Below, piece after piece: positions 15,032 through 50,760 of a stretch of 64,000 nucleotides of DNA. The stretch's first letter is position 1. Every line of letters begins with the position of its first letter. The notes beneath the pieces were generated by a model, which saw nothing but the letters and a program-made list of their open reading frames with translations, did not search any database and was not told the origin of the DNA. The stretch is from positions 80,112 to 144,111 of the forward strand of contig NMRA01000038.1 of NCBI GenBank assembly GCA_002633005.1. Reading direction: 5' to 3'. The stretch comes from Phoronis australis. Its lineage: Eukaryota; Animalia; Phoronida. The position numbers and the translations under genes are program-made.

Positions 15032-15046
15032 TAGTATGTGGTATAA

Positions 15047-20416: not shown

Positions 20417-20873
20417 AAGATCTTTCAGCTAACTGCTCGTGCATTTTCTGGCAATAGTATTAAATCGCGTTTCTGGTGAACGACGAACCCCAGGATGGAT
20501 AGTCATTCACCATTCAAACTCAACGAAAAACTAGTAGCATAGTGAATAAAATTCCGTAGAGAGCATAGTGATATCTTCTGCCAGTTAAGGACTCGAAATT
20601 TTGTCCGATTTGTACTAGTTGTATAGAAGTTTGAAAAATTCATGTGCGGTTAATGCTAGTCGGTATGTTACCGCTGTCCGGCTGGTGGCGTTAACCATTC
20701 GATTTTTCCCTTGAACCACTCCAATTGAGTTCATCGACAATATTAACAGTGAGTTAAATTTTTGCCGTGATTAACGTTAATGCAGGCAGGAAAGTAAATG
20801 AATCTTCTCGTAATTATGAATAAACAAACACGTGACGTGTCTGTCAATAGACAGTCAGGGTGGGGTTGCCAAA

Positions 20874-21240
20874 ATGACAACTGCAAAACAAAAAATTGCC
20901 ATGAAAGGCATGAAAAAGGAAGATTATCACTTTTTCAGTCGCAAATATAAAATCAACGAAAACAAATTAAAGGAACTGCGAGAAAATTTCGAAAGAAACC
21001 GTCCAGTTGAGCAGCAAAAGTTTAAGGCCAACGAATTTGAAATGAGCGCGAAACTAGAGAGGCTGAAAAGTCTCAGCAGCAGCAGAAGGAACAGTTCATC
21101 TATGGAAAAGACTGGGCCGACAGTGACATGCACTTCTTCAGCAGATAGTCCGTCGGTCGGGACGAACGGCAGGCGACAGAGTAGGCCAATGGTAGCAAAG
21201 ATTCTATCGACACACGATGCACGTGTTCACCACGAGCCAG
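20874..21240 (+). CDS. Cluster paralog 1, exon 1 (charged/coiled-coil N-terminus); C16orf78/DUF4638-like family
   Basis: aaaATG at 20874 (MTTAKQK...). Donor CAG|gtaaac at 21240/21241, phase 1; joins 23111 in frame. Confidence 0.75.
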
Positions 21241-21482
21241 GTAAACTATGTCTTGGTTATAAACACATTTGGTATGCAAGATATACGTGTACGCATTGCG
21301 AGCCATATACTCCATCCAATGAACACATGCAATTGATGCCTCAATTCTGACACAAAAACCAACGACGAATCCGAAGTCTCATAGAACGCTGTTTACGCTC
21401 TCTAGAGCACAGGTCTCCGGCATTTGTCAGCACAACTCGAGAATTCTTTGCTTGTTTCGTCATATTCGCACCATAGATTTCT

Positions 21483-22055
21483 AGGCGGAGGCTGCAAGAA
21501 ATAAAACAGCAAAAGCGGGATAAAATATTGAGTTTATTAATTAAGCCCGGTAACTATCATTATACGGCCCAAACAAGACATGACAAAGTGTGGAGTTTTA
21601 GTTTTTGTGTGCGTGTGAGGAGGCGGCTCAGGCCCGATTTCAAGTGTCCGATTCAGACAACCGGCGCAATCGTAACGGTATCTATGGCCAAGTATATTGC
21701 CGCTCTCAGTCGATATGCTCGTGATATCCCAGACGAATGGCAGCGGCGCTGTGCAATGCCACTCCGTTTCCATCGTCTGCTCCACTGTGCAATGATTAAA
21801 ATCATTTATTTTTTCAAAGAAAACGGAAGCTGAGTGACGATGAAGAAACAGAAGCTACTAGTAAGATGTAAATCAGGTGAAAATCTAGAATCAAGTACGT
21901 TTTAGTGGCAACTTGAACATTTCCGTGCAGCGACGTCGGATTCCAAATTGCGACCTGACCAAAGTAGAGCCGTCAAGGGCTGACTATATTTCAGAAATCA
22001 AGAAAATTGCTTGTTTTCGGAGGCAAGAACAAAAATTTTCCCTGGGAAATCCCCA
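21483..22055 (-). mobile_element. Family B element, copy 3 (inverted, deleted), in the intron of paralog 1
   Basis: Blocks are reverse complements of ~17590-17750, ~14400-14520 and ~17150-17245. Confidence 0.7.
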
Positions 22056-23110
22056 CCGTTTAATAAGACCACTGCATGTTTGAGCCCCTATACATGTAGT
22101 TCTGCTCGTCACCTCGTCACAGATGAAACTACTTCATCAACATGTAGAGCTAACGAGCTGACGTTGGGTCATCCAACACGCATCATGGCCGCTACAGCCA
22201 TTTAAATGAAAAAAAAGTATAATAAATGGAAAAAAACAATAAACGTAATTTTCTTGCGCCATTCTGTGTAATAATAAGGAAAATAATGTCAGTTGAAGAC
22301 CTGAAAACGGAATGCTCGTGACACGCCTAAGCGCAATTTGCTAAAAAATTGACATCTTCAGATTAATTTGCTCAGAAATTTGGATTGCTGATATTAAAAT
22401 ATTAAGAAATAATAACGACATGAAACCAATCACGATACTTTATTGTGACATGTACATAACCTGGTGGAAGAGGAACAGTTGATTGTAGAATCGGCTAAAT
22501 GCAAGTTGGTCAATGTGTGGCGCTCTAGCTATTTTATGGCGTTGAAAGCCACCGCATAAGAACGCTTCACAAATTCAGCATCAGAATAATACATGTAGAT
22601 GAACGGCAGTTTCTTAGCACCGGTTGGTCTGAGTAAACCGATTAAAGTGAATCCCGTTTTTAACCAGTTAAGCAAATCAATCAGCTTTTAAAAATCTTGA
22701 TTGCCAGACAATCTGTGATTTGGAGATAATCTTTGAATTAGACACATTTTGTCTTTATTTTGGTTATCATTACACGATCAGAAAATAAATACCTTCGTGG
22801 AGTTACTTGTAAGAGTAGCAATTAAGTTAAGTCGTTTCCATCAATACGCGTATTCTGAGACATTGTACAAAAGAAGGAATATCATGTAAAAGTGGAGTTC
22901 AATGACAACAGCTTATGTATGAATACGCCAATCACTTCCCTACATGCACAAGTACTGTATATGTCAACATTTTGCTATATGGCGTTAATGGCCCATGAGT
23001 TTGAGTGGGAAACTGTACAGCGTGGTTTTGTTTTCCTTGACCTTATACAGGTTGTACTTGTTTGTGTCACAAGATCGTCTACTCATGACTATGTTATACT
23101 GCGTTTTTAG

Positions 23111-23844
23111 ACGATACATTTACAACGTTGCTGCGGTTCCTTCGTCTACCATCCACTTACGACGCAGAGTTGCCGCCAACGCAACGCGAGTATATGAAGA
23201 TGATGGGAAGAAGGCAGTCATCACCGGAAGGGTTAAACGATCTGCAAATGGAGATTGAACACTATATCGACAAGATTCGTCAAATGTTCAGTGAAGATGA
23301 ACTGGGGGTCATGTTTGTAACATTCATGGGAAAGAGACCTTACACAACGATCCTGCATGATAAACTCGAGTCCGTGTTTTCTGAAATGGCTGTCGACAAT
23401 CCATTGGTTCAAAAAAAGCTCATCGCTTTAGAACTAGTGCTAGAGAAAATACAAACCGACAAGGAGAAGACGTCATTTACCGCTGTCGATGCTCTAAATT
23501 GTAGATACTTGAGGTTAGGCAAAGCGACTGTAAAAGAACTGGAAGAAAGTTGTCGCAAACTCGGTATCGAACCAGGACTTCATGCGCATAGTGAGGGAGG
23601 GCAGCTTAACATTGTCGAAGAAGTTTTCGCCGACTTGCCGAAATTCAGTGTACATTCAAAGCCACCAAGGCACCAGGTACCCGGACACAACTCGAAGCCA
23701 AGATCAAGAAAACCTGAGTTGATGAGCGAAGTAAGCCCACATCGTGGATTGAAAAATTCATCCAGCACTGCAATGGCACATGATATAAAGCACCAAAGCC
23801 GACACTTTCTAAGCAACACCTCTTCACCTTATAAACGCATTTAG
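23111..23844 (+). CDS. Cluster paralog 1, exon 2 (whole protein ~366 aa)
   Basis: Acceptor tttttag|AC; in frame with the 238-aa ORF; contains DALNCRYLRLGKATVKELEESCRKLGIEPGLHAH. Confidence 0.85.
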
Positions 23845-25743
23845 AATGACTTAAAGACATTGCTTAAATAAGAAATATGAAACGAATAAGCAGTTATTGT
23901 CACGAATTAGTAAAACAAACGGGAACTTGGGTCGTTAGTGTAGTTTTATTCTTGGGGCAAATCACAAACGAATCAGGTTTGAACGTTATTTCTTAAGACG
24001 CTTGGTCAAATGAATCTACATATTTATTAACAAAAACTCAATTTTTGTTGAACAATAACAAAGATAAGAGAGAGATATTACGTTTATCAAAGGTTATGTG
24101 GGCCTTTCATTTTTTAATAAACATTTTTGGTACGAGTCGTTGATTTTCACCCAGTTCTTCACAATCTCACGATGATGATTTATTTTTGATGTGCAAGCTT
24201 TTCCTTCAATTTCCCCAGAAGGGCAAGGTAAATCTCTATGCTTTGTTTGAATTCGTGTCATCCAACTCGCATCAATACAGTTGCTCTTGAAGGGGATGAG
24301 ATTCGTTGCGTTAACCTTTGACCGAATTTGCTTAACGCCTAAGCTTGTACAGGTCTGTTTTGTTTTGGAGTAAGTGGTTAACATGAACTTCATTGCTTAA
24401 ACTAATAAAAGTGTTATTCCAAGCCAAGGCTTGTCACTTAGTTGAGTGCCAAGGAATCTGTTGCTGGTTGTATGAAACAGTCCCTATTAGTGACTCAACT
24501 AGCTAGCCAGGTAGATATATGAAGACAATCGGTACCACTGTGTGTTCTTCTTCCATGGATCCCAAAATTACACACAGCCAGGGGAGTTCTGCTTGTCAAC
24601 TCGCTGTGAAACCTGTATCAACATGGAAAGCTAAAGACCGGACGTGGTGCATGCAAAATCTGGGAATCAAACGACACTCACCTTGCCCGTTACAGTCGTT
24701 TAAGTGGAAAACAATCAAATAAATGTCATTTTCTTGCGTAATCCTCCGCCGCCGAAAGCCGTCGCAGAAGATCGCTCCACAACTTTAGCAACAGAATAAC
24801 GGTAGAACACCAATTTTTCCAAAACCAGAAAATAATTTTATTTACTCAAATAATTGTGTAGTTTTTAATGACACTAATTTTATGTCATATTTTATTTGGT
24901 CATTTTTATCCACATCGGCGCAAAGCTGTATATTTACTATACAGCTTTGTACTAAGGCTAGGACTCAACTAAGTTCCCTAAATGCTTTGCATATTTGTTT
25001 CGTTTATAACTTACATACAGCTGTATGTAATGTTTTTCTATCATTTTACCTTTGTTACAAGCTCCTCTTTGACTAATAATATTTTCTAATAATATAACTA
25101 AAAACTAAACCCTTAGAACAATCAAAACGATTAGGGACTTAGTCCTTGAATTAGGGGCGTTGCATGAAAAGATCCCCACTTATTTCAATAATACTGAAAA
25201 TTCGACGAAGAGTTCACTCTCGGTTTGTATCAAAGACCAATAAGAAAGGACAACCAGGATTTTCACAAGCCCACAAATATGCAGTTGATTTAGGCAACTT
25301 GGTTGAGTCCCTATTTGGGACTGTTTCATGCAGCCGAGCACTGACACTTACAGATAATGGTAACTATTTACGTGTAGCCCAGCAGCTACTGCATAAAATT
25401 GCTTGTTTTGGCAGAATCACTCTGTATATATGTATGTATATGTATAATGTAAAATTGATTGTAGAATGTAAATTACGTGTCACACTCCGTACGTCTTAAG
25501 CACCTCGACAGGCGGCGGTACGAAATAGTTGACGAGGGGGCGGGGGTGATAACGATGAACACAAGACTCGATGCGGGGGCGCATAGATGAAGACTGGTGA
25601 GGAGGTGACATCAGTGGAGGCAGTTGTAGCTAGGAACCATGCCATAACTTATTCTGAAACTTAAAAGAATGCTTACAAAGTTTCAGGACAGTTTGACATT
25701 CATTCAACCAATGTGTGAAAGTATTAATGACAACATAAGTGAG

Positions 25744-25751
25744 TGACGTCA
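25744..25751 (+). promoter_or_regulatory. Perfect CRE (TGACGTCA) 63 bp upstream of the paralog 2 ATG
   Basis: Exact palindrome; equivalent sites lie upstream of the other paralogs. Confidence 0.5.
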
Positions 25752-25806
25752 GGGAAAACTTGGTTCACGGGTTACGGGTAGAACAGGATTAAAGACAGAA
25801 AGAAAC

Positions 25807-26119
25807 ATGTCTGGGAAACCACAAAAGATTGTGAGGCGGGAGGACGATTTGAGATTTACGACAAAGGGCAGAGTTTTGAAACATCAACTGGAGGAAGTAG
25901 ACAAACAGCTGGAGAGAGAAAAAGCAACAGTTGCCCGTTCACTTAAAGATCTCAAGACTACACAGAGCTTACTTCTAGCTGAAAAAGTTGCAAATCCCAA
26001 ATGCCACAATGTGGCTTACACCAAAAGACCTGAGGTCCCAGTCGAGATTGCTGATTTGCTTGTTCGAGACTATGCACCCTTGCCACACTTTAGCGACATG
26101 TTAGAAAAGAAAAAGGAAG
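25807..26119 (+). CDS. Cluster paralog 2, exon 1
   Basis: MSGKPQK...IADLLVRDYAPLP...; donor AAG|gtatga, phase 1. Confidence 0.8.
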
Positions 26120-26349
26120 GTATGATATGATCATTTCTTCCTAATATCTGTACAGTCTGTAATTGTATCGCAGTTCTACTTATAGCTGAGGCTTCATAAT
26201 AAGGTACAAACCTAGAAAACATATTGTCTAATTCATCTATCTAAAACGGCTAGGGTTTCGTTACATTAACGTTCCCAAGATTGCATCAGATACAGTTTCT
26301 AAAGCTAAATATTTTTAGAATTATCTTAACTCTCTGTTTTGCACAACAG

Positions 26350-27017
26350 CTAAGGATATCGGTATACCAGATATACTGTTACAATACTTTTCGCTTGACC
26401 ACGAGGTACGTCCAACAGACGAATACTTGGCGACGTTTAGTCCCAATCATCTGCCACAATTTCTCCGTGGAGGGCACCATTTAATTCTTGCCAAGCACGT
26501 GACGATGTTACATATTGAAATTGTGCAATATATGAAAGACATCGAACAGAAGTTTTCAGATGACGAAATTCAAGAAATAAGCGGCTTATTGCCTTTGCAT
26601 ACATGCGCTGGAGCAGAGATATACGAAAAAATCAAGCAATTCTTCGGTTCCGATTTGATTATTAAACATCCAGTAATGCACAAAAAAGAAATTGCACTCA
26701 CCCTATTGCTTGATCAGATCGCAGCAAAAAAGTGTGGCACCGACTTCGATCTTTACGAAACCATTAACAAGAGCTACCTTCACATAAGCCACCATAATGT
26801 AGAAACGCTGACCGAACTCTGCTTAAAACGGGGTAAAATACCGCAACACATGGACTTTCATATGCCTCCTTTAATAGTGGGCAACTCGGGATCTTCAAAA
26901 AAACTTCGAAGTTCGGATAGATTGGTTGACCACGATAAAGTCAGCCCGACACTCACAGGAAAGAAGACCACAGAGCCAGCACCGACGACAACTATAAAGA
27001 AGACAAAGTACATGTAG
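26350..27017 (+). CDS. Cluster paralog 2, exon 2 (whole protein ~326 aa)
   Basis: Acceptor caacag|CT gives AKDIGIPDILLQYFSLD in frame with the 196-aa ORF; contains HPVMHKKEIAL and INKSYLHISHHNVETLTELC. Confidence 0.85.
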
Positions 27018-27180
27018 GTCATGTCCGGAGCAGGTCGTAAGTACAATATCTAAAGAAAAACATGAGGCAAAAAATTCAGCCTCAAGTACAATTTTGTGAC
27101 ATCATAGATAAACTCGTCACACTGTCAAACAAAAAGTAGTATATAAAGCTAATAACGAAAGACGCAAAAAAAAAACAAAA

Positions 27181-27508
27181 ATGGCAAACCAAAGAAAGGG
27201 CGGCAACTTATTTCAAATAACAAAAGAAAGGAAAGTTAGTGAGAATCAGGTGAGGCTGGCTGGTCAACACTTCGACAGGGCTAAAGGTGTTAGGGAAGCG
27301 CTACACGCACATGCGAAAAAAAGTCTTGAGAACGCACTTCATAAACTGGAGACTGCCAAGCTTCAAGCAAAAGAAGAAAAGAAAAAGAGACAATCAAAAG
27401 ATAGAGAAAAAGAGAAAGAGCACAAGGAACGAGAAAAAATGATTTCAAAGTCTGTTAAAGATCTTTTGGTACGGGATTATGAGCCTCTGGTCTCCGAGGT
27501 GACTCCAG
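27181..27508 (+). CDS. Cluster paralog 3, exon 1
   Basis: MANQRKGG...VKDLLVRDYEPL; donor CAG|gtttga, phase 1. TATATAAAG at 27140-27148. Confidence 0.75.
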
Positions 27509-27779
27509 GTTTGATGATTGTTTGTCATTTATTTTTTAAAATCTACTGGTTTATAGTTGAAATGCTATTAAGCAAACAATTTCCAACAAACTATGAAATC
27601 CCATTAACACGGCAGTCAGAGAGCTTTCGGATAATGCTTTGGGGTATCGAGATGATTTAGGGGGGGTAGTAAATTTGTAGATTAGTCGTGTAACTAGAAA
27701 CCAAGTCAGTCAATCAAATTTCCCATATTATTTTGCGTGTTATTTCCACTTCATAGACGAATACATTTCGTATTTAAAG

Positions 27780-28471
27780 ATACCCCCCCTCTACAAGACG
27801 TACCCGAGCATCTATTGGAGTACCTGAACTTTGAAGGCGACATTCAACTTGAGGACGAGAGACTTACAACCACGAAGCCCCACCTACCGGATTCGGTACT
27901 TCACGGTGTCTCACCGATACTTGGTAAACACGTTAATATGGTGCATCTAGAAATTTATAACTACATCGAACATCTCGGTATGAAGTACACGTACCAGGAG
28001 CTGGAGGAATTAAAGCGGGCCATGCTAGAAGCACTAGAAATTGGGTCCGATATAAATATCAAGCTACAGAAATATTACGGCAATAAATTTACGAGTCACC
28101 CGATATTGAGGAAAAAGAACGTGGCACTGGAGCTTTTGCTGGAGAAGTTACAATTCGAAAAAAACAACAATTACGAGTTTGATCCGGTGGACGTCCTAAA
28201 CTGCAGATATTTGCGATTAACAAAGAGCACAGTTTCCACCTTAGCTGGCATTTGTCGCACAAAGGGTAGCATGCATAAAATTTCATATGACTTGCAGGAG
28301 TCCATGAACCCAGGATCAGCAACATTGCTCGGGATGGACCCAGGCGGGAGAACAAGTGTACATGTATCTCAAGCCCCTGGACCAAGCAAAGCTGTTGAAA
28401 AGTCGATGGTGAGCAATAAATCCGTCGCTTGTTCGAGCAACTTTGCAAAGAAGAACAAAGGTCGACCGTGA
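27780..28471 (+). CDS. Cluster paralog 3, exon 2 (acceptor uncertain: 27780 or 27798)
   Basis: 244-aa ORF containing HPILRKKNVALELLL and DVLNCRYLRLTKSTVSTLAGIC; two AG sites are phase-1 compatible. Confidence 0.8.
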
Positions 28472-31400
28472 AAGCCCTAGTCAGGGAAAATATCGACGGT
28501 TAGTAATTGGTGTAAATGTATTGTACTGGAATTAAACTAACGAAGGCTGTGTATACTAGAAACTTGAGAGCCAATATACTCGTTCGTCACAAGGTGTTGT
28601 TTCACTGTCACTAGACGCTGTTAGTTTTACCACTGGGAAGTTATGTCAGCCACCATGCAGGTTTACTAAGAACACTAAAATCATTTCTAACTGTAAGTGT
28701 AGAAGGCTAAACGTTGATAGGGGTCCATCGTGTGCATCGCAAGAACCAAAACCAACAGTGGTGACCATTACGTGGCGAAGTGAAGTTTTTCCATTGTTCT
28801 TTTGATCTGTTTTGATGTGTTTACTTGCCGTAACGAAATTTCCCCACGTCGAGAAGACTGGGGGTAGCTGAAACATTTTTCATTTAAAGGAAATTATATT
28901 GAACATGGGGATGTGTCAGTCTTTCCGCCGGCACGGTGAATGTGTAAAAACTTCCACCCTATAATCTGCTAACCATCAGTAAGTGCAACGAAATTGTAGG
29001 ATATTTCAACTTGTCTCATGAGCGGAGCCCTTTGTAACACGCTATGGGGCCAGTGGCGCTGTGGGTGCATGCAGTTCTTCTTTGTAGGTGGTGCCATGTA
29101 GATCTTCTTAGTAGGTGGGGCCAGGTAAGAAAATGCGCCCCCTCCCAATCACAGTGCTATTTGTGGCCTATCTTGAATGTCATGTGCCAATTTTGTTTGG
29201 ACAACATGTACTTTGGAGGCTAATAAACTTAAGTGAAGAAAAGGAAGCAACGTGTTAATTTTATTCTCCACGAAAATATAAAGGACGCATCGGCGCTGAT
29301 TAAATTTACTGGTGCTAATTTTATATCAACATAATTCACTGATTTGTTAAGTAACCGATTCCGTACAAATGCACCTTTACTGCGTATCCAATGTGTTTCA
29401 GCCTCGAGCTTTTACAACCGACGCAACTTGTACTCTAATAGAACCCCTCCTTTATATATGTACGACCCGCGTTCAAGCAAGGGTGAACCGGCTCAGGGTG
29501 TCCGAGTCGGATTTAATCTCGAAATATTCGCCGTCTCTAGACTAGATGCGCAAACAGGGAGAACGTCGCAGGCTCGGAATGCATAACGGATAATCGACTG
29601 TTCAGGAGTACGATAACCATCTTAAAGAGTGCTTGCGGAAAAACACTTGTTGGCCAACAAGCCGGCTTCATTCGAATCAAACTCTAAGCTGTTGCCATCC
29701 AGCCAGCGTCTCGTCCCCAGAAGAAGATCAAGCACACCACCTCTACCACCACCGGCCTACCAGGTCCTGCCCTCGATCCACGTCCACACCAACCACAGCA
29801 AGGACAGAAGACGAGATCCTCCGATCTCGCGAAGCTGTCTGAGGGTTTCACCCTCATCTACCCTACTCTCAAACACTTGTTGGGAGCAGTAACGCTATTT
29901 TCTCAGATCATCTTTTTGGGAATATTGCATGGACCGTCTACATCAACTGGATCTAACGCTTTAAACGAAAATGAGAGACGGTATGGTCCTGACACACGGC
30001 TCAATGTTACCTTTGCCCGACTGTTATAAAAAATAGTTTCGGATGCACAAGGCACTATGTGTGAACGACATTCATGAAAGTGCGCGTTGTTTTAGTTGTC
30101 TTGCAACGTATTAGTTGCGAAACAACAAGAGATTCTCTGTATCTTTCCAACTCGCTAATCCCTTGCAGGACAATTTTAACTCGTCCCGTGTTGCAAGGAA
30201 AACACTTTAAAAACTTTGATACACAGTACGAAAACAACGAAAGTATAAGTATTTCATATACAGTTTAATGCGGAAAATTGTGTGATTTGGCGTCCCAAAA
30301 TTGCGATTTTAGCTCCCCTGTAACGCATTTTCAGGGGCGCCCAGGATTCCTTATGTGTGTGATCTCAGTCATTGTTAAACCGACTCAACACTACTGCTAG
30401 AGCATTGCAGTGCCGATTCTCCGTCTAATTGAACAACTCTCAATTAGTAGGTCTGTCTCAGTACAAAGCCATCTGACGGATATGCCATAAGTCTTGAGCA
30501 AATTTTTTGTAGTTTCATGGTATAAAGGTAGCTATCAGTTAATTTTAATTGTAGCGAAATCCCTAAGCTGTGGTTATACTGTATGTAGTTACAAAACTTG
30601 ACAAGTCTGGTGTATAATGGCAAAAATGGCTATTTACAAAAAAAAAATCTTTTTTAAAGCTTCATACGTCCAAATATAATGTTTAAACAAATTCATAGCT
30701 CTCTCTAACTCTACAAGCAAAGTTCATACTAGAGGTTCTCGTCAAAAATTAATTCAACTGTTTGTTTTTCGTGACAACTGCTGGAACAATGCTTTGAGTT
30801 CAGTAACTCAGTGCCCCTCCCTGTGCCGATCGAATCTCTCCATTGTGGAGAGAAGTTCATACAGTTGTACACTAGCCTACTGGTACATGAATAACAAAAA
30901 TGTACCTCTGCAACGAAACAGAACGATGCTCATTATAGATCGAAATAAATGAAAAATGATAAAGTTGTCCTTAAAAACAACAATTTCCGAGTACTACCTC
31001 TAGACAAGCGCTGGCATCCAACAGATGCAGAGACAAAGGCGCCCAGAAGAGTGAAACTCCGGCGCCAAAAATCAGATTGGCCTACACCAAACCGAAAAGT
31101 ACGTATCTCGGAAAAAAAAGATTTGTGTTTAACCTTCGAGTAATCCAACACCATAGTAAAGTTAAACTGCTCGTTCGGCCGTCCAAAGTTTGATTAGCCA
31201 TCGTTTACACAGTCGACCATGATCACTTTTCGGCTAAGAGGATGCCCAAAAAGTGACGGGATATTCTTCTCGAGTTGTACAGCGGCCAGAATTGCACATG
31301 CCATATCAACACCGTGTCACCATTCTTATCGCATACCTTTTTGAGCTTTATACTAAAATAAGCTTTACCGCGAACAACTTCTGTTTGTCGGGTAAAATGA

Positions 31401-33049
31401 TGGCGGCTTGGAAAAGCAGACGAAGGTGAGTCAAGAATGCTACATTCTGATTGGTCAGTGAAGCCGTCAGTCATAATCCTAGCGATAGGTTAATTATTTG
31501 ATTATTCATCTGTGAAGTTGCTTATAAGAGGTTCTGAAATTAAGGGGTGTCAAGTTGTATACTCGGTATCTCTCGTGAAATATGTGGTTCTTCGTCTTGC
31601 CTCGGTGGAACTGGTGAGTTCCCACAATTTAGAATCGAGTCGGAAACATAGATAGTCAATAAAGGGTCAAACAAATTACAAGAAAACCAAAAAACAATGT
31701 TTTTTAGACATTCGAAACAAGTACGTTCATCAATTAGTCAGTCCCTTTAAACAAGAAATTAAGATTTCGATATTTAGATTTCCTTTGGTTATGTAACACG
31801 TTGAGGAACACAGAGCATAGAAATCTTCACCAACTGGGCAGCTTTCAACGGTCTTTCATTTGGCTACCCGAATGCATGCACGCATACAGAAAGGTATGTT
31901 GCATGACAAGCGCCACCTACTGAGGTCCTAATTATACTTGTGCATCTGGAGGCCGCTTTGGAATGTTTGAAAAAAATCAATTTTCCTGATGTTCCTCTCC
32001 GTTCTAAATCACTCTCGATTGCGCACACTCCTCGACTGTACATGTATGCCCATAGCTGCGTATAACCGCACCGAAAATCGTGCTAAATCAGGGTCACAAG
32101 TCTGAGCTATGGTTGCGCATTGTTTTTATTCCTAAATTAAAATAACTCCAAAAATGACCTTCGATTTCACTGTCAAAACAAAAAGTTGACCTGCTTCATC
32201 TCAAACAGCTTGATTATGTAATTATTTATGTCAAAGGCATGCCTTCAACAGGTGAACAAAATGTCTGATCAAATTAAGTAAGCAAGCACTGCATTTGTGC
32301 GCCAACCTTGAGTCTCTTTGTGACGTGTGTCGCTTTTGTGGTTCCCTTCTCCCCCGATACGCCAAGTACTTATAATTCCATGCTAGAAAAATAACCAGAA
32401 GTCAGGCATTCAAAACATCGCTTGACCCAAATAGATGATGTTGTAAATGGAAAATTATTTCATAACCAAAATCAAACAGAACAAATTAGCCCTATTAATG
32501 TCTTTGTTATTCGGAAATAAGAAAACGCCTGAACTTTTTTAACTCTTACGACGTCTGCAGTTCAGAGTCCCTTTGTTGCGGCACAGTGGTTTTGCGCTGT
32601 TCTGATCCCTTCGTTTTCTACCGCCATCTGCCGGGAACAAGATACGCATTAGGGCGCGGCGTCTATTAAAAGCGCAAACAACGCCGAGTGTATTTCTTTC
32701 GGATGAGGTGCTGACAATCTAAAGAAGCACTGGTGACAACAGATAAAATGGAAATAGACAGGCCCGAAAGAAGTGACGTAAGACTCCAAAACTGGAATGA
32801 CGACAATGTCAACCCGCCAATAAATATACGAGGACATAAATGGAAACACTATTAACAAATCACTGACACTTTATAAGGTATGCATTGCGCGATGCCGACA
32901 CGTCATAGGTGCGTTATTTCTACATATTCAATGTGCACCTGCAGTTATGAGAGACTTCTAGACGACTAATTATTTCTCTACTTCGTTACACTTTGTGGCA
33001 GTAGCTTTGGTCGACAATTTCAAATCTCCTGGGGTTCTTCACGTAGTGA

Positions 33050-33858
33050 TTAGTTTGTCTGAGTAGACTTGTATGAGGGAGACGATGGCAAATGGTCATA
33101 TCCGTCTTTGTTATTGTGAGATTTGTTGCTAAATCCTGGATTTTTTATTTGGTGAGGAGGCGTATTGAACTCTGAGTGGCGCCTAGGTCGTGTAGCAGCA
33201 GTCGTAGGATCCATCAGTCCGCTGACTCCAGAATTTTCTGTTCTATCATTGGTCGTGCAAGCTGCAATGGTAAAACGGCGACCCTGACAAGGCTGATCTT
33301 TCCCGAAGACCAGATCAATGGTTTCGTCTGTACTTAAATTTGATATATGAGTGTGCAGTTCAATTGACTTGCCACTCCTAACGCAGAGCTCGGTCAAATC
33401 CTCAACGGTTTTGTTACTTAAACGTAAGTACTGGGTGCGCAACGCTTCACCGGGATCAAAACCCTGGCCTTTACGGTCTGACGTCATTTTTTTCAACAGG
33501 ATAGAAAGGGCAACTTTTTTCTTCTGCATTGTTGGGTGTTGAGCTATACTGCTTCCAAACAGTTTGACCAGTTCTACATTCAGCTCCGAACCCTCGTCTT
33601 CCATTTTTTCGATTAAGCGTGCAATCTCCTTCAGTTCCAGTTCGGTGAATTTGGTACCCAATTGCTCAATGAATTTGTAGATTTCTTTATGGACCTGTAA
33701 AATATGTTGCGCCAGCGATGGTTGTCTGCAATGCTTAATTATTTGGGGAAGGTGTTGATGATCGAAACTCTCTGTTTTAACGGGCCCACATAGATCTCTG
33801 TTATCAAATTCTTCCAACTCTAGATACATCTTCAGAATGGGTGGAATCACATCTTCCT
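33050..33858 (-). CDS. Cluster paralog 4, exon 2 (whole protein ~389 aa)
   Basis: Acceptor tttcag|AG; contains HPTMQKKKVAL and EALRTQYLRLSNKTVEDLTELCVRSGKSIELHTH. Confidence 0.85.
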
Positions 33859-33979
33859 CTGAAATACAAACAAGTCACAACTAGTAACAAGTAAAAATAA
33901 ACACCACTAGCTACCAATTGGTATGATAGTTGTTTCGTCAGCTTTGACTGAATTGTGCATGTTTTCTTTAGATACTTAC

Positions 33980-34340
33980 TTAACTTTTTTTCGGCAATCA
34001 TGTCTTCAACTGCTGGTAGAGGTGTGTAATCTTGTGCTAACAACAACGCTACGGATTTGCCTGCTTCTGCTGCGCGGTGTTTTATAATGCCACTAGCTTG
34101 TCTCGCTTCGCTCTCTTCCATTGAATGTCTTCTCTTTTCTTCAAGCTTTTCAGATTTTTTCCGCACTTCCTGTTGTAAGCGGTCCATTTGCTGGAATGAC
34201 GATCTTCGTTCTTGATCGCATCTTTGGCGTACCTTAGCCACTTCTAGCTTGTTTCTCTTTGCCTGCCTGTCTGCATCTGTCAACTCTCTTTCTTGTTTCT
34301 TTTTTGCTCCCTCGGCAATCATTTTTGTTTTCAGCGACAT
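33980..34340 (-). CDS. Cluster paralog 4, exon 1
   Basis: MSLKTKM...VALLLAQDYTPLP; donor A|gtaagt, phase 1; 121-nt intron. Confidence 0.85.
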
Positions 34341-34585
34341 CTCCGATTACTTGCAGCCGGAATGTCTTTGGATAATTTGAACTATTTTTATTCGAAGAGC
34401 ATTTTTAATTTTTATCAGGAATTTTGCAAACCGGTTGTTACCCCCAATGAAGCCACCATGTCACGTCATAACTTTATTGCGTCAGATTTCTAAACACTCT
34501 GTGAAGTCTTTTACGACACGCACTCTGAGAATTAGTGTAAGAGCTCGCAAGAAAGATATTCTGTATAGGTGTAGAAAATTTCGTG

Positions 34586-34653
34586 ATGACCGAGACTTGA
34601 ACCCGGTTTGCACGAGCGACAGTCAAGCACCTAAACCATTCGGTCAAGAGGCA
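34586..34653 (-). mobile_element. tRNA-like SINE head
   Basis: Reverse complement has an A-box-like TGACCGAATGG and a B-box-like GGTTCAAGTC at tRNA spacing. Confidence 0.4.
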
Positions 34654-37600: not shown

Positions 37601-38213
37601 TTATTCAAATAATGCTTTTTTCAGCGAACACAGATTTAGCATGTGCTCACATGGCCTCGGGCAGCTGGTCAAGTAGTTTTATTGCCTCTGAAGCCTGTAA
37701 CGCAATTGATATGATTTATTCATTGTTAGTTTCTCAGAACATTTGCATTCATAACACTCTAAAGGAAATTATTTGCTGAGACAGTCTTTCGAGACACTTT
37801 GTTATAGTTTTAATAAACATTGATTAGGGTGAGATTAACTCATTTTGAAAAACAACGATTCCGGCCACAGACACGGGGAAATTTCACGACCTCATAATTG
37901 GTATTAACGGCGTGCTTTTCATTCTTTTACTACCGCGAATCACTTCCGATGCATTTCAGGTTGTCGAGAAAATCGAAAAAACGATATACCCAATTTCCTT
38001 GCAGTTTCATGGTTAGCACAAGCGAGAACCGTACACACTCAGCTGAAGAACCACTTACGTCGCTGCGTCTACTCACCTTCCTCACAGGTTAAGGCGACAC
38101 CTCTCGGTGAGGTGAGATCGATCGTATACTAGGTGATGTATATGCAGACCAATTAGACGGCAAAAAAACGAAATAAATCGGGTGGCATTCTCCTAATTTA
38201 GTAATTTCCGGGC

Positions 38214-38526
38214 GTTGTTCTCAGTATCATTACTAGGCACGCTACTGCGTTTACGTTCGGATTTCCCGAATCGCTATGAGCGACTGAAGTTACCTGACAA
38301 AAATGTCTTCAAGACATTCTCTGACTAAATGTTTCCGTATAATGCTTTGGAGCCCACATGTGCATAGGCAAGAAACCCAGATCATTAAAGTTGTTCTCAG
38401 TATCATTTCTAGGTACGCCACTTTATTTCGTCTAAACCGGCTGTTCCCATTTCCCGAATCGCTACGAGTGACTGAAATTACCTGACAAAAATTTCTTCAA
38501 GTTATTCTCTGACTAAATGTTTCCGT
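38214..38526. repeat. Diverged direct repeat, two ~125-135 bp copies (38214-38338, 38391-38526)
   Basis: Shared gttctcagtatcatt...ttcccgaatcgcta...ttacctgacaaaaat...ttctctgactaaatgtttccgt. Confidence 0.85.
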
Positions 38527-40049
38527 GCCAGTTATCCAGTAATCCAGAGAGAGAACTCTGTGTACCACAATACATCCGAACTTGTGTCCTGTTTTTTTCG
38601 AGTAACCGTCATGGCATTCCCATTTCTTGTATCAGGCCAACCAATTTCATCTTATCTCAGGAAGGTAAAGCCACCAAGAGTCGTCGCCGTGTATACGGAT
38701 TTCCCTTTCACCGGGTTCAGCTGCCTTAGGGCGCTACAAAAAATGGCAGACATTTGCAAAATATGATCAAAAAGGTCCACCGTTTAATAAATTCGAACCA
38801 CTCTCCGCGCAATGCTGGTTACGGGCCTGTCTTGTCGTCTCCAACTTATTTCCCAATTTCACCCCTGGTCGTAACGTCCTCCTATTATCTTTCCTGTTTG
38901 TTCCATTGTGTATTCAGTTTCCCGAAATTGTTCTTGCTTTGTCCGAATTTTTGTTAGTTTTTGCCCAAAATTGCTGGTCGAATATTTTTAATCGTTCTGT
39001 CGAGTTTCTGATGGTCTCGGTGAAAGTGGTAAAAAATCCTATCACAGAAAAGACAATACAACGAGACCAGGACTCGGGACTGCAGCCGATGGCCCGGTGC
39101 CGACTGAGACCAGCATTGGCAAAAGGCGAAAGCATGCGGTCGCCGGCTGTTTTATCGGAATAAATGGTTCAAACCACACACTTGCATATTATTTCGAACT
39201 AGTCACACTGTCCTGTGCCAACGATTGAATAATATAGCGTGTTTTACTGGGTGTATTTAACTCTGGTAAACAAACAGTATAAGCATAACAACGAACATGC
39301 AACATCAAAATAATTGAATAAAATTGCTGTACAGTTACAATATTCTGACGATTAAACTCGCGAAGATATCGAAAATAAATTTAGACAGGGAAATTAAGAA
39401 ACCGGTGGTCTATCGCGACTTCCGTTACGACCGGGCGCGGCTGACGTACATGTACGCTCAACAATGAACGACAGAATACTATTTGGTTGCGAAATAACCT
39501 AAGAAAGAAAACTTGCCATGGTGCTAAATGGTACGATAAAAGTATTAATGAGTTTAAAGTAGAAGGAATGGCCTTAAATGAGTGAAATTTGTGTGACAAA
39601 GAGATTAAAAAATACTGTGTCATGCTCATAACATTGCAATATTTTCCCATTCGTCGACATTCAGATCATCGACTACAGTTCATTACACCCCCCCCCCCCG
39701 TTTTCGTTTCCAATCGCGGAATTTTTATATTTAAACAACAGAGGTATAATTTATATTTTAAATTTTTAAAAGTATTATGTTTAGCCTAATAGTTGAAAAT
39801 CAAAGACAATTTAGCAAGTTATTACATTCCCGGCCAAGAGTCCCGGAAACCGCACTGGGGAATTATTTCCCCGGTTACTGTGTCCGGACAGTAAAATCAA
39901 GCACAGGTGCACGTTATTGCAATTGAAGTGCGGAGCTCACTGTTTTGAGATAAAACTTGTTTCTTTTTGTTGAAACATCGCCGTATGTGGATGTTTCTTT
40001 TTCATGCACTGCGCAATAAAATTTATTATCACGTGACAGCACAGACACA

Positions 40050-40057
40050 TGACGTCA
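40050..40057 (+). promoter_or_regulatory. Perfect CRE (TGACGTCA) 62 bp upstream of the paralog 5 ATG
   Basis: Exact palindrome; almost the same spacing to the ATG as in paralog 2. Confidence 0.5.
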
Positions 40058-40111
40058 TGTCATCGGGCTAAGCCCGATGGTGCTCGGGAAAGATCCATAA
40101 CAAGATAAGTA

Positions 40112-40481
40112 ATGTCAGAAATCAGAAAAAAGTTAGTTGCTGTAAGGGGTGCAGAAAAAAGTGGAAAATATTACGATGCCGGAGGGATAATAGCTAAACA
40201 TAACGATGTGATGATTGAACATGTGCGAGAAGAGTACAACAAAGCCAAACGGTTGAGTCGGTCGAGTATTGACAAAGATAAATGTTTAATGCAACGGAAA
40301 TTGGAGGAGCTTCAAAATGCTAAAAGATGCGCAGAAGAAGATAAAAGAAGACGAAGAAGCTCAGAGGCATCTAAAAAATCTAAACATTCCTCGTCTCCGG
40401 AAACGTTACAAGCCGTTGCCGACTTGCTAGTAGAAGACAACGAACCACTGCCAAACTTCAATGAAGTGATCAGTAACTGGG
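40112..40481 (+). CDS. Cluster paralog 5, exon 1
   Basis: MSEIRKK...VADLLVEDNEPLP; donor GGG|gtaaat, phase 1. Confidence 0.8.
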
Positions 40482-40730
40482 GTAAATATTGAATTTAGCT
40501 GCCATGGTTACATGTATTTTCAAAACCGCCGAATAGTGCCTAAGTAATGAAAAAGGAAATCAGGTGTCATTCTCTTTTTTGCTGCAATTTTGGTCGTAGC
40601 TTTGCAAGGTAAAAGTATTTCTCGTGGTCCCTCAGTTATAAGAAGTCCGAGACTGGGGGTGAACCTGGTTGACACGATCTTTATGGTGTCCATATGCATG
40701 TTCTCAAGGTAAAAGTATTTGCCGTAAAGT

Positions 40731-40822
40731 AAATGTTCAATGCAACTGAAATTGGAGGAGTTTCAAAATGCTAAAATGTACGCAGAAGATTAAAGGAGAC
40801 GAAGAAGCTTAGAGACATCTAG
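40731..40822 (+). pseudogene. Decayed partial duplicate of paralog 5 exon 1 inside its own intron
   Basis: Matches 40280-40375 (aatgtt.aatgcaac.gaaattggaggag.ttcaaaatgctaaaa...gacgaagaagct.agag.catcta), with an indel and a stop. Confidence 0.85.
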
Positions 40823-42505
40823 ACATCAGACAACCGATTGCTTTACTGTATGCCATTTGGAAACAAGAGTATTCTTTCAGGGTTTCTTCCGTCTAGCGCA
40901 AGCGATACCGGTTAAGAAGCCGTTTAAAGACAGATTTCTCTGAAAAAAAACGTGAATAGGACTGAAAATTATTACCCAAATATGTTTTGAAACATCTCGT
41001 GAACATGTCTGAGCCATGGCAGAAACGAATTTCCAACGGAAATTTCAAGGTTTGGGTGAGGTTCTTGTATACAAAATCGCTATTTCTTGGCCAATTTTGA
41101 AAATTGAAGAGCTCGCATAGTCAAAATTTTACTCAGCTATTCAGACTTTTTATTACCAGAGCCTGTGTGCTTTCCAGCCTCCAATTCCAGTTGATACTAT
41201 CTTCTAAGAAATAGTACGCGACCTTAGTGAACATAGAGTCACTCTATTGATGACTACCCCCTTATGAGGCGGTTGGGTTGGCCGGTGACACTGGAGAAAT
41301 TCAAACGACTTCCACAAATCGATCCTTATCTTGTTTAAAGGGGATAGTTACGTCACGAGTATCTGCGAAGGTGTTACAAAGCAACTTCCTTAGAAAACCT
41401 TAGGTTGGTGGAAAACGCTAGCAAAGCTGAGTAGCATAGGTTTCTAATTGGCCTTCGTTAATGGATGATCCATCAATGTGGGATTCAGATTTTTGCGCTG
41501 AAATTTCATGGAGTACTAGACAAGTGTGTTTTACGTCAAAAATTAAATGCAAAACTGGTTTGGGGAAACTCTGGACTAGATTTCGAAGTCACTGATCTCA
41601 GTGTTACAGAAATAGTCACAATAAAAATTAGAGTAAATCTGTCTGCGTAAATGAACAGACGAGGTAAATAATTTACAACTCGTGAGCAGAAATAAAACAA
41701 AAGCGATTACGTTTACCTTGAGGTAAAATGGTCACCTCGGCCTTTGACACTGATGGCAGACATCTTTATTTTGTAGACGAGACGAGTCAGGGTGTGATTC
41801 TATACCATCGTCTTTTCTATTATGAGATCAAATTTATTGAAAGTAAATGGTCCCATTCGAATGCAGGGCAAAATGCAACTTTGATGAAAATTGGCAGTGG
41901 ACAAAACCAGGAACACATATAACACTAAAGAACAGTTATTTTTGCGTATTGGTCCTGTTTTCGAAGGTTATTTAAAAGCTAACTGTCAAGGTTGTCAGCA
42001 ATCTAATAAATGTAGTATAAAGTTGAAGTATTAATCTTCAAACTGACACCAATTCCGTTCCTTAAGATTTCAATCAGTAGGGGTAGGGCGCCATGAATAA
42101 GACGTGCCCCAACAGAAGACGGCTCTTTGCAGGCAAAATTTCCGAGCAGAGCTTCTCTGATTGGCCAATTCTTTATCGCACCTATTAAGCATATTAGGCC
42201 AGATCACATCCTGTGGTTTCTTTTTAAAGGTTATTTTCTTCTCAGTTAAACAAATGATTCTGTAATTAATCTACGAATCATCAAAACGAAATTGTTGTTT
42301 TTCCTGTTGAGTATTCCTGGTATTCTTCCAAGTGTAACCCAATAAGTACACGCAATCAGTACTTGATAGTGTGTATGATGTTTTATTGTGAGCATCGAAG
42401 GACCATAGATCCTGATGAAGTTGTGGTTTGAAATAACAAAGCTAAGTTAGCTCAATGCTTGAGTAAACACAACTACAACTGTACGCAAATGTTTTCATCT
42501 TTCAG

Positions 42506-43314
42506 AGGGCGATATAGGAATAGCGCCGCTCGTACTGAGGTATCTGTCACTGGACGTTACTGACAAGAACGATAGTGAAGATACTCGGGGTGACAATTTG
42601 GCTGGAACTAGCGTACGCGCAACTCATCAACGGCGCATTTCGCTAGAAAAACACCTATCTCACGTTAAGACCGAGATGTTTAAAATCATTCATAGTTTGA
42701 GGAAACAGTTCACTATACCTGAGTTGAGGGAGCTGCACGTCCATCTTAACGCGATGCATCCTGGTAATGCCTCATACGAAAGAGTGGTACACGTGTTCGG
42801 GGAACCAGCTTTTACTCACCCCGAGATGCGCATGAGAAAGTACGCGGTAGAGTTACAAGAGGAGAGTATAGCTGCGCATTGGAAAGTTGCTGGAACCATG
42901 TCAGCCATGGACGCGCTGCAATGTCGCTATCTCAGACTGGTTGATTCCGCAGTAGAGCAACTAGTCAAAATGTGCCACGAAATGGACATGGATCCCGGCT
43001 TGCATGCACACACACACATCTTGTCCCCAGCTGACTTGGTGGAATTCATATTCCGGGACAACAAGCGTTCACCGACCACAACTCACGAGCTAGTGAAAAT
43101 CGGAGACAAATCAAAAACTGATCGAACGCATGAGAGGACATCCTCACCCACAAAAGGAAAGCAATCAAAGCTAGCCAAAGTTTACTCTGTTCCAGAAGAC
43201 GAACTGGGCCTCCGCGACAGAGGCACGAACAAGGAGTCGGGCAAAAAATTTACTTCTACGATTCATAATAAATACCATTCGGCACAGAAATCAAAATCTC
43301 CGGATAAACCCTGA
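42506..43314 (+). CDS. Cluster paralog 5, exon 2 (whole protein ~392 aa)
   Basis: Acceptor tttcag|AG gives EGDIGIAPLVLRYLSLD; contains DALQCRYLRLVDSAVEQLVKMCHEMDMDPGLHAH. Confidence 0.85.
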
Positions 43315-45809: not shown

Positions 45810-45968
45810 CAGGATGGATCCAGGATTTTGAGTTAGGGTGGAGGGGCCAGGGCACAGTATTCGCCAAAATTTTTCCAGTCAGACATTCGCACCTCTGAAC
45901 TGCCCAATGGAATGTGGGAAAATTTGGGGGGGCCTGTTCCCCTTGGCCCCCTTCTAAATCCGCCACTG
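45810..45968 (-). mobile_element. Short hAT-like MITE, family C (inverted)
   Basis: Ends aaatccgccactg; reverse complement resembles 15519-15664. Confidence 0.6.
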
Positions 45969-46069
45969 ATGTGCAACTTGACGCATAAGGAACATTTCGT
46001 GAAAACTATTCATCACTAGGAAGCATGAACCAATGGCTAGGTACCACTGACACGAGATTCAAGAGAGTA

Positions 46070-46155
46070 CATGGGCGGTGCAGCACTGAAATAAGTGGAG
46101 GCTATAGCCCCTCAGCCCCCTATCAGGTGCGCCCCCTCTTGGGCGCGCCACCCAT
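46070..46155. mobile_element. Tiny MITE-like repeat, family A
   Basis: catgggcggtgcagcactgaaata...ggctatagccc...gcgccacccat. Confidence 0.55.
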
Positions 46156-47585: not shown

Positions 47586-47676
47586 TCATCGGAACACTTC
47601 ATCTTCACTGTCATATCTCGATGATCTGCCATTTGGTCTCGCACGACTTGTCAATGAGGTCTCTTCAACATCAGAC
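47586..47676 (-). CDS. TMEM181: TMEM181 coding exon 13 (last): SDVEETSL...YDSEDEVFR*
   Basis: Acceptor tgtcag|G completes phase 2; acidic tail resembles the vertebrate (G)SDYEE... ending. Confidence 0.75.
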
Positions 47677-48374: not shown

Positions 48375-48645
48375 CCATTACTTATGGGTCCGGGATACCT
48401 GATGTGTCCAGCAATAGTCGCAAGGGTACCAGATTGCTGAAAACTTATGGGCCAAGATTACTTATAGAATGATCCAGGATTACTTATGGATCCAGGATAA
48501 CTTATGAATCCAGGATAACTTATGGATACTAGGTTGTTCATGGGTCACGCATTATTTAAGGATCCAGGATTACCTATTGGTCCAGGATCATATTTGGGTT
48601 CACGACTACTTATCGTCAAGGATTACTTATGGGTCCAGAATTACT
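48375..48645. repeat. ~20-bp minisatellite (ccaggattacttatgg[ga]t); resumes at 49407-49435 after the MITE
   Basis: About 10 degenerate copies visible. Confidence 0.85.
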
Positions 48646-48647
48646 AA

Positions 48648-50302: not shown

Positions 50303-50304
50303 CT

Positions 50305-50740: not shown

Positions 50741-50760
50741 TTAAAGATATGTCAACTCAC

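What the first reader, a model, noticed from the sequence alone, without database searches (positions are those of the whole stretch)
20874..43314. Cluster of five highly diverged two-exon paralogs with a C16orf78/DUF4638-like motif and an apparently unnamed conserved domain
Seen: five intact genes (20874-23844 +, 25807-27017 +, 27181-28471 +, 34340-33050 -, 40112-43314 +; about 326-392 aa). Each has one phase-1 intron just after a 'vA.LL..DyePLp' block, which is weak in paralog 1. Exon 2 shares the order L..YL.l / HLP...L.KH....h.EI...i..l..kFt..El..l / fG......HP.m.KK..AL.lll..i / F...daL.cRYLRL....V..L...C...G...lHxH, followed by a disordered S/T/K-rich tail. DNA similarity between copies is not obvious by eye, so the expansion is old and the frames have been kept open. 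Recalled knowledge: human C16orf78 (DUF4638, testis-enriched, function unknown) ends in EVLSCRYLRLSKENIRTLLKLCKDAGMNVDIHPH, which matches the last block. Inference: a lineage-specific expansion of an uncharacterised, possibly sperm-related family. The ~150-aa helical region before the motif may be a new domain.
Basis: partly seen in the sequence, partly recalled or inferred. Interest (0 to 1): 0.85.

Follow-up and report, generated by a model that had tools for sequence, protein, structure and literature searches.

The report
Co-expressed five-gene C16orf78 family cluster
An invertebrate carries five old, intact, side-by-side copies of a gene related to the unstudied human testis gene C16orf78, all strongly transcribed in two RNA samples and silent in a third, and they likely encode sperm-building proteins whose shared end is predicted to bind a metal ion.

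Summary
Five intact two-exon genes (366, 326, 339, 389, 392 aa) each have one phase-1 intron; all five junctions are read in two RNA runs (85-656 reads) and in none of a third, where neighbouring TMEM181 is expressed more strongly. All 10 pairs are homologous (23-35% identity), fourfold-degenerate sites are saturated, and the five form one clade (96/96). A TGACGT (CRE-type) motif lies 8-24 bases before 4 of 4 read-defined 5' ends. They belong to the C16orf78/DUF4638 family: 80 of 83 profile hits carry DUF4638, from vertebrates, amphioxus, echinoderms, a hemichordate, molluscs, an annelid, a nemertean and a priapulid; the window genes themselves score below Pfam's cut-off. The family has two conserved ends: an N-terminal coiled-coil-like helix and a ~110-aa helical module with near-invariant Cys and HxH. 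Only ~95 aa across the intron (genes 2-5) is lineage-specific, so the 'new 150-aa domain' is about half right. No solved structure matched. Sperm role (~60%) and zinc binding (~35%) are inferred: sample tissues are unknown. New variant of a known, uncharacterised family; interest 0.45.

The parts
20833..20838 (+). TGACGT (CRE-type) motif, 16 nt before the read-defined 5' end (20849) of g1
20874..21240 (+). g1 coding exon 1 (N-terminal helix; 366-aa protein)
21241..23110 (+). g1 phase-1 intron, 1870 nt, GT..AG
   Evidence: 126 and 85 junction reads
23111..23844 (+). g1 coding exon 2 (C-module with Cys, Cys, HxH complete; basic tail)
25744..25751 (+). Full palindromic TGACGTCA, 8-24 nt before read-defined 5' ends (25752-25768) of g2
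25807..26119 (+). g2 coding exon 1 (326-aa protein)
26350..27017 (+). g2 coding exon 2; most eroded motif (first Cys, Arg of YLRL and HxH lost; no Pfam hit)
   Evidence: 129 and 137 junction reads
27097..27117 (+). g3 upstream CRE-like TGACATC plus a TGACG half-site on the other strand; g3's 5' end was not in the listed rows
27181..27508 (+). g3 coding exon 1 (339-aa protein)
27780..28471 (+). g3 coding exon 2 (both Cys kept, HxH lost); highest depth of the five; 3' ends near 28568
   Evidence: 656 and 590 junction reads
33050..33858 (-). g4 coding exon 2 (Thr for first Cys, HxH kept); 3' ends near 32863
   Evidence: 350 and 336 junction reads; models
33980..34340 (-). g4 coding exon 1 (389-aa protein)
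34463..34468 (-). TGACGT, 11 nt before the read-defined 5' end (34452-34457) of g4
40050..40057 (+). Full palindromic TGACGTCA, 11 nt before the main read-defined 5' end (40061) of g5
40112..40481 (+). g5 coding exon 1 (392-aa protein)
42506..43314 (+). g5 coding exon 2 (Cys, Cys, HxH complete); 3' ends near 43434-43462
   Evidence: 207 and 169 junction reads
45692..53760 (-). 3' part of neighbouring TMEM181 (not part of the family; used as expression control)

Best explanation
These are five intact, spliced, old tandem paralogs of the C16orf78/DUF4638 family that are transcribed together in some samples and not in others, and they likely act as non-enzymatic structural or adaptor proteins of maturing sperm, switched on by a CREB/CREM-type factor predicted to bind the CRE motif at each 5' end. 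Shown: gene structure, splicing, joint on/off expression, the motif's position, family membership at both ends of the protein, one local clade, saturated synonymous sites. Inferred: (1) the 'on' samples are testis or ripe males (~60%); (2) the motif is bound by a CREB/CREM-type bZIP protein (~55%); (3) the N-terminal amphipathic helix mediates coiled-coil assembly and the C-terminal helical module is a docking unit whose Cys and HxH hold a zinc ion (~35%); (4) the paralogs have split roles, g1 and g5 keeping the full Cys-Cys-His-His set, g4 three, g3 and g2 having lost HxH, while genes 2-5 replaced the family's long disordered linker by a short segment that folds onto the module.
For: Junction reads 85-656 for 5 of 5 genes in X2 and X3, 0 of 5 in X4, while five TMEM181 junctions have 16-38 reads in X4 against 4-21 in X2/X3; gene depth about 100-740 against 3-12 for the TMEM181 3' UTR in X2/X3. 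TGACGT starts 8-24 nt before 4 of 4 read-defined 5' ends; 1.3% of 30-nt windows hold it; 5 of 5 genes have a TGACG half-site within 130 nt of the ATG. CREM-tau is haploid-spermatid specific in mouse and binds TGACGTCA or TGACG (PMC3091680, abstract start and passages). Human C16orf78 is testis-restricted by RT-PCR (PMC9141640, passages), among the four most reduced genes with TNP2 in spermatogenic arrest (PMC12431239, passages), and stated to be spermatid-enriched (bioRxiv 10.1101/2021.05.24.445517, passage citing Uhlen 2015). Family: DUF4638 E 1e-4 to 6e-4 in 4 of 5; 80 of 83 profile hits carry DUF4638; profile of 81 relatives scores the five 24.8-77.7 bits against 7.5 for the best of 1005 controls. 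N-terminal helix: hhalign window vs 27 invertebrate relatives P 75%, E 2e-5, reversed controls under 1%; invertebrate vs vertebrate P 92%. Among 88 relatives the first Cys is kept in 83, each His in 87, the second Cys in 57. AlphaFold: all-helical, pLDDT 84-97 by blocks over residues 51-170.
Against: The tissue, sex and stage of X2-X4 are not given, and three raw-read runs come from one study; ovary, larva or a gland would give the same on/off picture. CRE sites are common in somatic cAMP-responsive promoters, mouse CREM sites peak near -150, not -10, the motif was noticed by eye before it was counted, and read ends are not cap-mapped. No window gene reaches Pfam's 27-bit cut-off (20-22 bits; g2 none), and g2 scores 5.6 bits with the vertebrate profile, below the best control (8.1). 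Three of five paralogs have lost one or more proposed metal ligands yet are as highly expressed; the second Cys is absent in 31 of 88 relatives. Ligand geometry could not be read from the models; pTM was only 0.58-0.67. By HMM score alone the N-terminal match clears the best shuffle (8.7) clearly only in g5 (12.9; g4 8.9). No expression data were found for any invertebrate relative (0 papers for six gene ids).
Confidence: 0.55

Rival explanations
1. The cluster is real and co-regulated but has been redeployed outside the male germ line (oocytes, a larval stage, a secretory or cAMP-responsive somatic tissue); the rebuilt middle region reflects that new job.
For: The on/off pattern has no tissue label. 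The five sit on long branches (0.9-1.7 against median 0.62) and have a private ~95-aa segment. CRE motifs serve somatic CREB too.
Against: The only family member with data is testis-restricted. Very high, all-or-none expression of basic, intracellular-looking proteins (pI 8.6-9.5) fits spermatid genes (own knowledge).
Confidence: 0.22
2. The proteins are nuclear, chromatin-associated factors of the histone-to-sperm-protein transition rather than parts of the tail or cytoskeleton: the basic tails and RK-rich helix would contact DNA and the Cys/His module would be a zinc-stabilised reader.
For: Tails have pI 9.5-11.4 and 38-57% S/T/K/P; human C16orf78 falls with TNP2 in spermatogenic arrest; helix C carries a KK/RR cluster in most relatives.
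Against: Co-reduction with TNP2 only marks spermatid loss; no DNA-binding family or fold was matched; tails are not conserved between paralogs. This is a variant of the best explanation that differs in location.
Confidence: 0.13
3. The C-module is a small metal-dependent enzyme (Cys plus HxH as active site), and g2 and g3 are catalytically dead regulators.
For: Near-invariant Cys and two His over all sampled bilaterians; Amidohydro_3 was hit weakly by 4 of 93 members (best E 0.001, below cut-off).
Against: The part conserved up to mammals is only ~45 residues of helix and loop; the model has no strands; g3, which lacks HxH, is the most expressed copy.
Confidence: 0.05
4. The lack of reads in X4 reflects absence of the cluster from that individual's genome (sex-linked or presence/absence variation), not regulation.
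For: X4 has depth 0 in nearly all unique bins of the genes, introns included.
Against: TMEM181, whose 3' end lies about 2 kb from g5's, is read in X4 at high likeness; an independent 2015 run with about 2% diverged sequence holds pieces of g3, g4 and g5 and the g3 junction.
Confidence: 0.05

Closest known systems
Vertebrate C16orf78 (Pfam DUF4638, PF15472), e.g. Psammomys XP_055477516.1, and the reptile, amphibian and coelacanth 'C16orf78 homolog' entries
   Same: C-terminal L-x-C-x-YLRL...L...C...G...HxH motif; in non-mammalian vertebrates also the N-terminal '..L++l...Ld.....+EE+++++.L' helix; sample-restricted expression.
   Different: Five clustered copies; ~95 conserved residues with predicted helices in place of a low-complexity linker; tail after the motif 80-128 aa against a family median of 50; motif eroded in g2-g4; scores below the Pfam cut-off.
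Uncharacterised invertebrate DUF4638 proteins: Branchiostoma XP_078577359.1 (best hit, E 1e-13), Saccoglossus XP_077866584.1, Owenia CAH1793996.1, Lineus XP_064639830.1, Diadema XP_072168836.1, several mollusc subfamilies
   Same: Whole ~110-aa C-module (helix 'l..e.L.el..ll', helix '+kk+..ALe.ll..l', F.p.e.L.CrYLRL, HxH) and the N-terminal helix.
   Different: These have 200-500 residues of disordered, Ser/Arg/His-rich linker; none of 119 family proteins matches the window's private segment (best E 0.4). None is an evident one-to-one ortholog: the five form their own clade.
CREM-tau target genes of mouse round spermatids (PMC3091680)
   Same: CRE or half-CRE close to the 5' end of each gene; strong, restricted expression.
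   Different: Sites here lie 8-24 nt from read ends, mouse occupancy peaks near -150 (full CREs near -45 by the paper's cited analysis); binding is untested here; the recalled mouse symbol of C16orf78 was not found in that paper's 7 supplementary files.

Membership tests
C16orf78 / DUF4638 (PF15472) | Pfam gathering score of 27 bits | tested here: not met
   Exon-2 products score 20.1-22.3 bits (E 1e-4 to 6e-4) in g1, g3, g4, g5; no hit in g2. Spliced proteins were not scanned. 19 of the 80 relatives with a hit also fall under 27, so the curated model is vertebrate-biased. The genes are therefore filed with the wider homologous family, not as curated Pfam members.
C16orf78 / DUF4638 (PF15472) | Significant reciprocal profile homology of the C-terminal motif | tested here: met
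   Window profile retrieves 83 proteins of 1.84 billion, 80 with DUF4638, 61 above the cut-off. Profile of 26 proteins named C16orf78 scores g3, g4, g5, g1 at 29.4, 29.2, 28.7, 23.8 bits against 8.1 for the best of 1005 controls; g2 5.6, linked only through its paralogs and the wider profile (24.8 bits). The 26 were themselves recruited by searches seeded from the window, so the test is independent in names, not in recruitment.
C16orf78 wider family (as delimited here) | N-terminal ~50-aa amphipathic helix | tested here: met
   hhalign P 75.5%, E 2.4e-5, 46 columns against 27 invertebrate relatives; reversed controls 0.4% and 0.7%; direct window vs vertebrate only P 5%. Coiled-coil composition may add to the score.
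C16orf78 wider family (as delimited here) | Cys before YLRL and HxH (83, 87, 87 of 88 relatives) | tested here: inconclusive
   Complete in g1 and g5; g4 lacks the Cys; g3 lacks HxH; g2 lacks both.
C16orf78 wider family (as delimited here) | Long low-complexity linker between the two conserved ends | tested here: not met
   Replaced in g2-g5 by a ~95-aa conserved segment, leave-one-out 40-58 bits against at most 8.5 in 300 shuffles each; its last helix is predicted at pLDDT 92-97. This is the variant feature.
C16orf78 (human) | Testis/spermatid-restricted expression | tested here: inconclusive
   On in 2 of 3 raw-read runs, off in 1, tissues not given.
CREB/CREM-regulated spermatid genes | CRE bound by a bZIP factor and needed for expression | not testable with these tools
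   Motif present at 4 of 4 mapped 5' ends; binding untested.
Zinc-binding CCHH/CHH modules | Ligands clustered in space and metal bound | not testable with these tools
   Model coordinates are not returned; conservation only.
Transposon accessory protein | Transposon Pfam domain, terminal repeats, near-identical dispersed copies | tested here: not met
   No such Pfam hit; no DNA similarity between the copies in a self-blastn; shared intron, relatives are host genes in many phyla.

The most novel reading that the evidence does not exclude
C16orf78 is an ancient, pan-bilaterian sperm protein built from an N-terminal coiled coil and a zinc-binding Cys/HxH helical module of undescribed fold; in this invertebrate lineage it multiplied into a CRE-driven battery of five genes that rebuilt the linker into a folded extension and now co-assemble, metal-binding and metal-free subunits together, into a sperm structure.
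Probability: 0.15. Interest if true: 0.75.

Novelty: new variant of a known kind. Interest (0 to 1): 0.45.

Why it matters
C16orf78 is a testis-restricted human gene with no known function. This work shows that its family reaches across bilaterians with two conserved ends that the Pfam model largely misses in invertebrates, names three near-invariant residues to mutate, and offers a natural series of five highly expressed paralogs that keep or lose them. A compact, well-predicted paralog domain may be easier to express and solve than the mostly disordered vertebrate protein. A CRE at each 5' end would, if the tissue is testis, suggest that CREB/CREM-type control of spermatid genes is older than vertebrates. 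It is not a new kind of system, and expansions of reproductive genes are common.

Tried and rejected
Word-index search with the five exon-2 products found no relative among 3054 candidates of 121-469 aa; the HMMER scan of representatives did. P0019 (Myb repeats) was a false hit and was dropped; P0037 was left out of the profile; 11 short fragments and P0019 were left out of the tree. Fold searches gave no verdict: Foldseek 0 matches at E 0.001 for both models; VIA-align best Z 5.7 (SecA N-terminal helices, rmsd 2.4-3.1, 70-76 aligned), none at Z 8 or more of 48,161 chains, the level of generic helical hairpins; the YLRL/HxH end was barely tested alone, so a new fold is not shown. No PDB sequence matched the family profile at E 5. 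The idea that the private exon-2 helix is a duplicate of the N-terminal helix was rejected (hhalign P 0.1-0.3%). A Speriolin_C hit (E 0.047 in 1 of 15 proteins) did not recur among the families shared by 2 or more of 93 members. A recalled likeness of the N-terminal helix to CCDC190 got no Pfam hit. TMEM181 did not place the organism: 74-83% identity to molluscs, annelids, amphioxus and vertebrates alike. No genome is held, so copy number elsewhere and synteny with TMEM181 are untested. Complex prediction and the protein atlas were not available, so self-association and N-helix/C-module contact are untested. No indexed RNA holder was listed; the raw-read runs were added by species label. Literature: 'DUF4638' 0 papers; 'C16orf78' 23 (passages read in 6: none giving a molecular function); 'H16orf78' 3 listed (passages of 2 read, GWAS/variant lists only); recalled mouse symbol 4933402J07Rik 3 papers, listing only, none on testis, and absent from the main text of the 15 listed knock-out papers (listing only; their supplements and subscription papers were not seen and may hold a knock-out); six invertebrate gene ids 0 papers. 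56 other open frames of the window outside these genes and the two TMEM181 exons gave no Pfam hit. Earlier scan notes: none by sequence, none on this family by words.


Full report
1. Gene models. All 10 pairs align (E about 1e-10 to 1e-31; 23-35% identity), a self-blastn shows no DNA similarity between copies, and no sixth copy lies in the window.

2. Expression. One contig run (X1, 2015) and three raw-read RNA runs of one 2026 study (X2-X4, added by species label, 18-19% of each read) were laid. Most X2/X3 reads on the cluster are 99% or more alike (12934 of 16274 in X2). The five predicted junctions are read exactly, on the right strand: 126/85, 129/137, 656/590, 350/336 and 207/169 reads in X2/X3, and 0 in X4. 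X4 is a valid control: five junctions of the neighbouring TMEM181 gene (identity) have 32, 27, 38, 21, 16 reads in X4, against 21, 15, 5, 5, 13 in X2 and 4, 14, 6, 10, 5 in X3. In X2/X3 exon bins of the cluster reach depth about 100-740, the TMEM181 3' UTR 3-12. So the five are strongly and jointly on in two samples and off in the third. The tissues are not given.

3. Promoters. Read pile-ups mark 5' ends at 20849 (g1), 25752-25768 (g2), 34452-34457 (g4) and 40054-40061 (g5); g3's was not among the rows shown. TGACGT begins 16, 8-24, 11 and 11 nt before them, as the full palindrome TGACGTCA in g2 and g5; 1.3% of 30-nt windows contain the hexamer, and the window as a whole has 39 matches against 27 expected. 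g3 has TGACATC 84 nt before its ATG and a TGACG half-site. The motif was picked by eye first, but four hits in register are far beyond chance. It is the consensus for CREB/CREM; CREM-tau drives mouse spermiogenesis, although its sites peak near -150 (PMC3091680, passages).

4. Age and origin. Fourfold-degenerate sites agree in 62 of 276 comparisons (22%; 26% expected at random), so synonymous change is saturated and the duplications are old. On 131 columns of the C-module with 71 relatives the five form one clade, 96/96, as ((g1,g5),(g3,(g2,g4))), on long branches (0.9-1.7; median 0.62); few columns and long branches call for caution, but the shared intron and physical linkage agree. Against the diverged X1 contigs, non-tail coding pieces differ at 3 of 675 sites and TMEM181 3' UTR pieces at 33 of 1836 (Fisher p 0.012; 6 of 838, p 0.036, with the g3 tail; only the 8 listed pieces per call were available): weak support for purifying selection. 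Of the 9 coding variants visible in truncated tables 6 change the residue, in exon 1 or the tails, too few and too selected to read.

5. Family. Pfam DUF4638 hits exon 2 of g1, g3, g4, g5 at E 1e-4 to 6e-4, 20-22 bits, under the 27-bit cut-off; g2 has no hit. A profile of the five cores found 83 proteins among 1.84 billion (best E 1e-13); 80 carry DUF4638, 61 above the cut-off. Of 30 looked up, 21 clusters had names: amphioxus, hemichordate, three echinoderms, annelid, nemertean, priapulid, eleven molluscs, anchovy and a rodent 'C16orf78 homolog'; a second search added 34 hits, mostly vertebrate 'C16orf78 homolog' entries. No cnidarian, insect or nematode name appeared, but 9 of the 30 are unnamed and 53 of the 83 were not looked up. 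Profiles built without the window genes recover them: 81 relatives give 77.7, 24.8, 54.1, 56.8, 61.4 bits for g1-g5 (best of 1005 controls 7.5); 26 named vertebrate proteins give 23.8, 5.6, 29.4, 29.2, 28.7 (best control 8.1).

6. Anatomy. The family has two conserved ends: a ~50-aa amphipathic N-terminal helix, also present in exon 1 of the window genes (hhalign P 75%, E 2e-5; reversed controls under 1%), and a ~110-aa C-module: helix, loop, basic long helix, F.p.e.L.C.YLRL, helix, G, HxH. Among 88 relatives the Cys is kept in 83, the two His in 87 each, a second Cys in 57. Between the ends relatives have long low-complexity linkers. The window genes instead have ~95 residues across the intron that are conserved among g2-g5 (leave-one-out 40-58 bits; shuffles at most 8.5), not detectably in g1 (4.1), and absent from 119 family proteins; they also have longer basic tails. 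AlphaFold models of the g4 core are all-helical (mean pLDDT 70 with 5 sequences, 80 with 87; 84-97 by blocks over residues 51-170; pTM 0.67 and 0.58). g1 and g5 keep Cys, Cys, His, His; g4 lacks the first Cys, g3 the HxH, g2 both.

7. Reading. Human C16orf78 is testis-restricted (PMC9141640, passages), falls with TNP2 in spermatogenic arrest (PMC12431239, passages) and is described as spermatid-enriched with unknown function (bioRxiv 10.1101/2021.05.24.445517, passage); it is abundant in boar testis and higher in the second of the two groups listed in a sperm-motility contrast table (PMC7249385, one table row). With all-or-none expression and a CRE at each start, the most likely reading is a spermatid gene battery of structural or adaptor proteins: coiled-coil N-terminus for assembly, helical C-module for docking, possibly zinc-stabilised, with paralogs dividing the work. 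The tissue, the factor, the metal and the location are all inferred. Rivals are redeployment to another tissue, a chromatin role, an enzyme, and absence of the locus in X4.

8. Verdict. Observation confirmed; interpretation partly supported. This is a new, lineage-specific variant (clustered, co-regulated, linker rebuilt) of a known but uncharacterised family. No description of the invertebrate family or of DUF4638 was found in the searches named under Tried and rejected. Interest 0.45: solid and testable, not a new kind of system.

Noticed in passing
window 26119 to 27780: Read-through splice from g2 exon 1 to g3 exon 2 (8 and 6 reads), in frame, 334 aa; g2's stop and g3's ATG are only 163 nt apart.
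   Followed up: partly
window 26119 to 26878: Minor g2 splice to an internal acceptor (10 and 13 reads), in frame, 150 aa, removing the whole C-module.
   Followed up: partly
window 27498/27780 and 27508/27757: Minor g3 donor and acceptor shifts (26/16 and 16/17 reads), both out of frame (121 and 132 aa).
   Followed up: partly
window 40726-40821: Decayed 86%-identical copy of 100 nt of g5 exon 1 (40274-40373) inside g5's intron; almost no reads there.
   Followed up: no
window 14397-14599, 17465-17738, 21507-21873; 13790-13987, 17023-17244, 21953-22046; 15038-15223: Dispersed short repeats, one an inverted-repeat element, one copy inside g1's intron; likely non-autonomous transposons.
   Followed up: no
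window 24650-25620, 29690-29870, 31380-31480, 48640-49410: High-copy repeats that draw many partly fitting reads on both strands in all runs.
   Followed up: no
window 45692-53760 (-), continuing beyond: TMEM181 ortholog, tail to tail with g5, five junctions read, about 2-3 times higher in X4 than in X2/X3.
   Followed up: yes
P0033, P0037, P0041, P0046, P0054, P0057, P0076, P0078, P0079: A clade of relatives (97/92) with W in place of Y in the YLRL motif, and several further mollusc-type subfamilies, suggests independent family expansions elsewhere.
   Followed up: no
window 1-20000: 48 open frames of 65 aa or more (those without runs of N) gave no Pfam hit; no RNA was laid there.
   Followed up: partly
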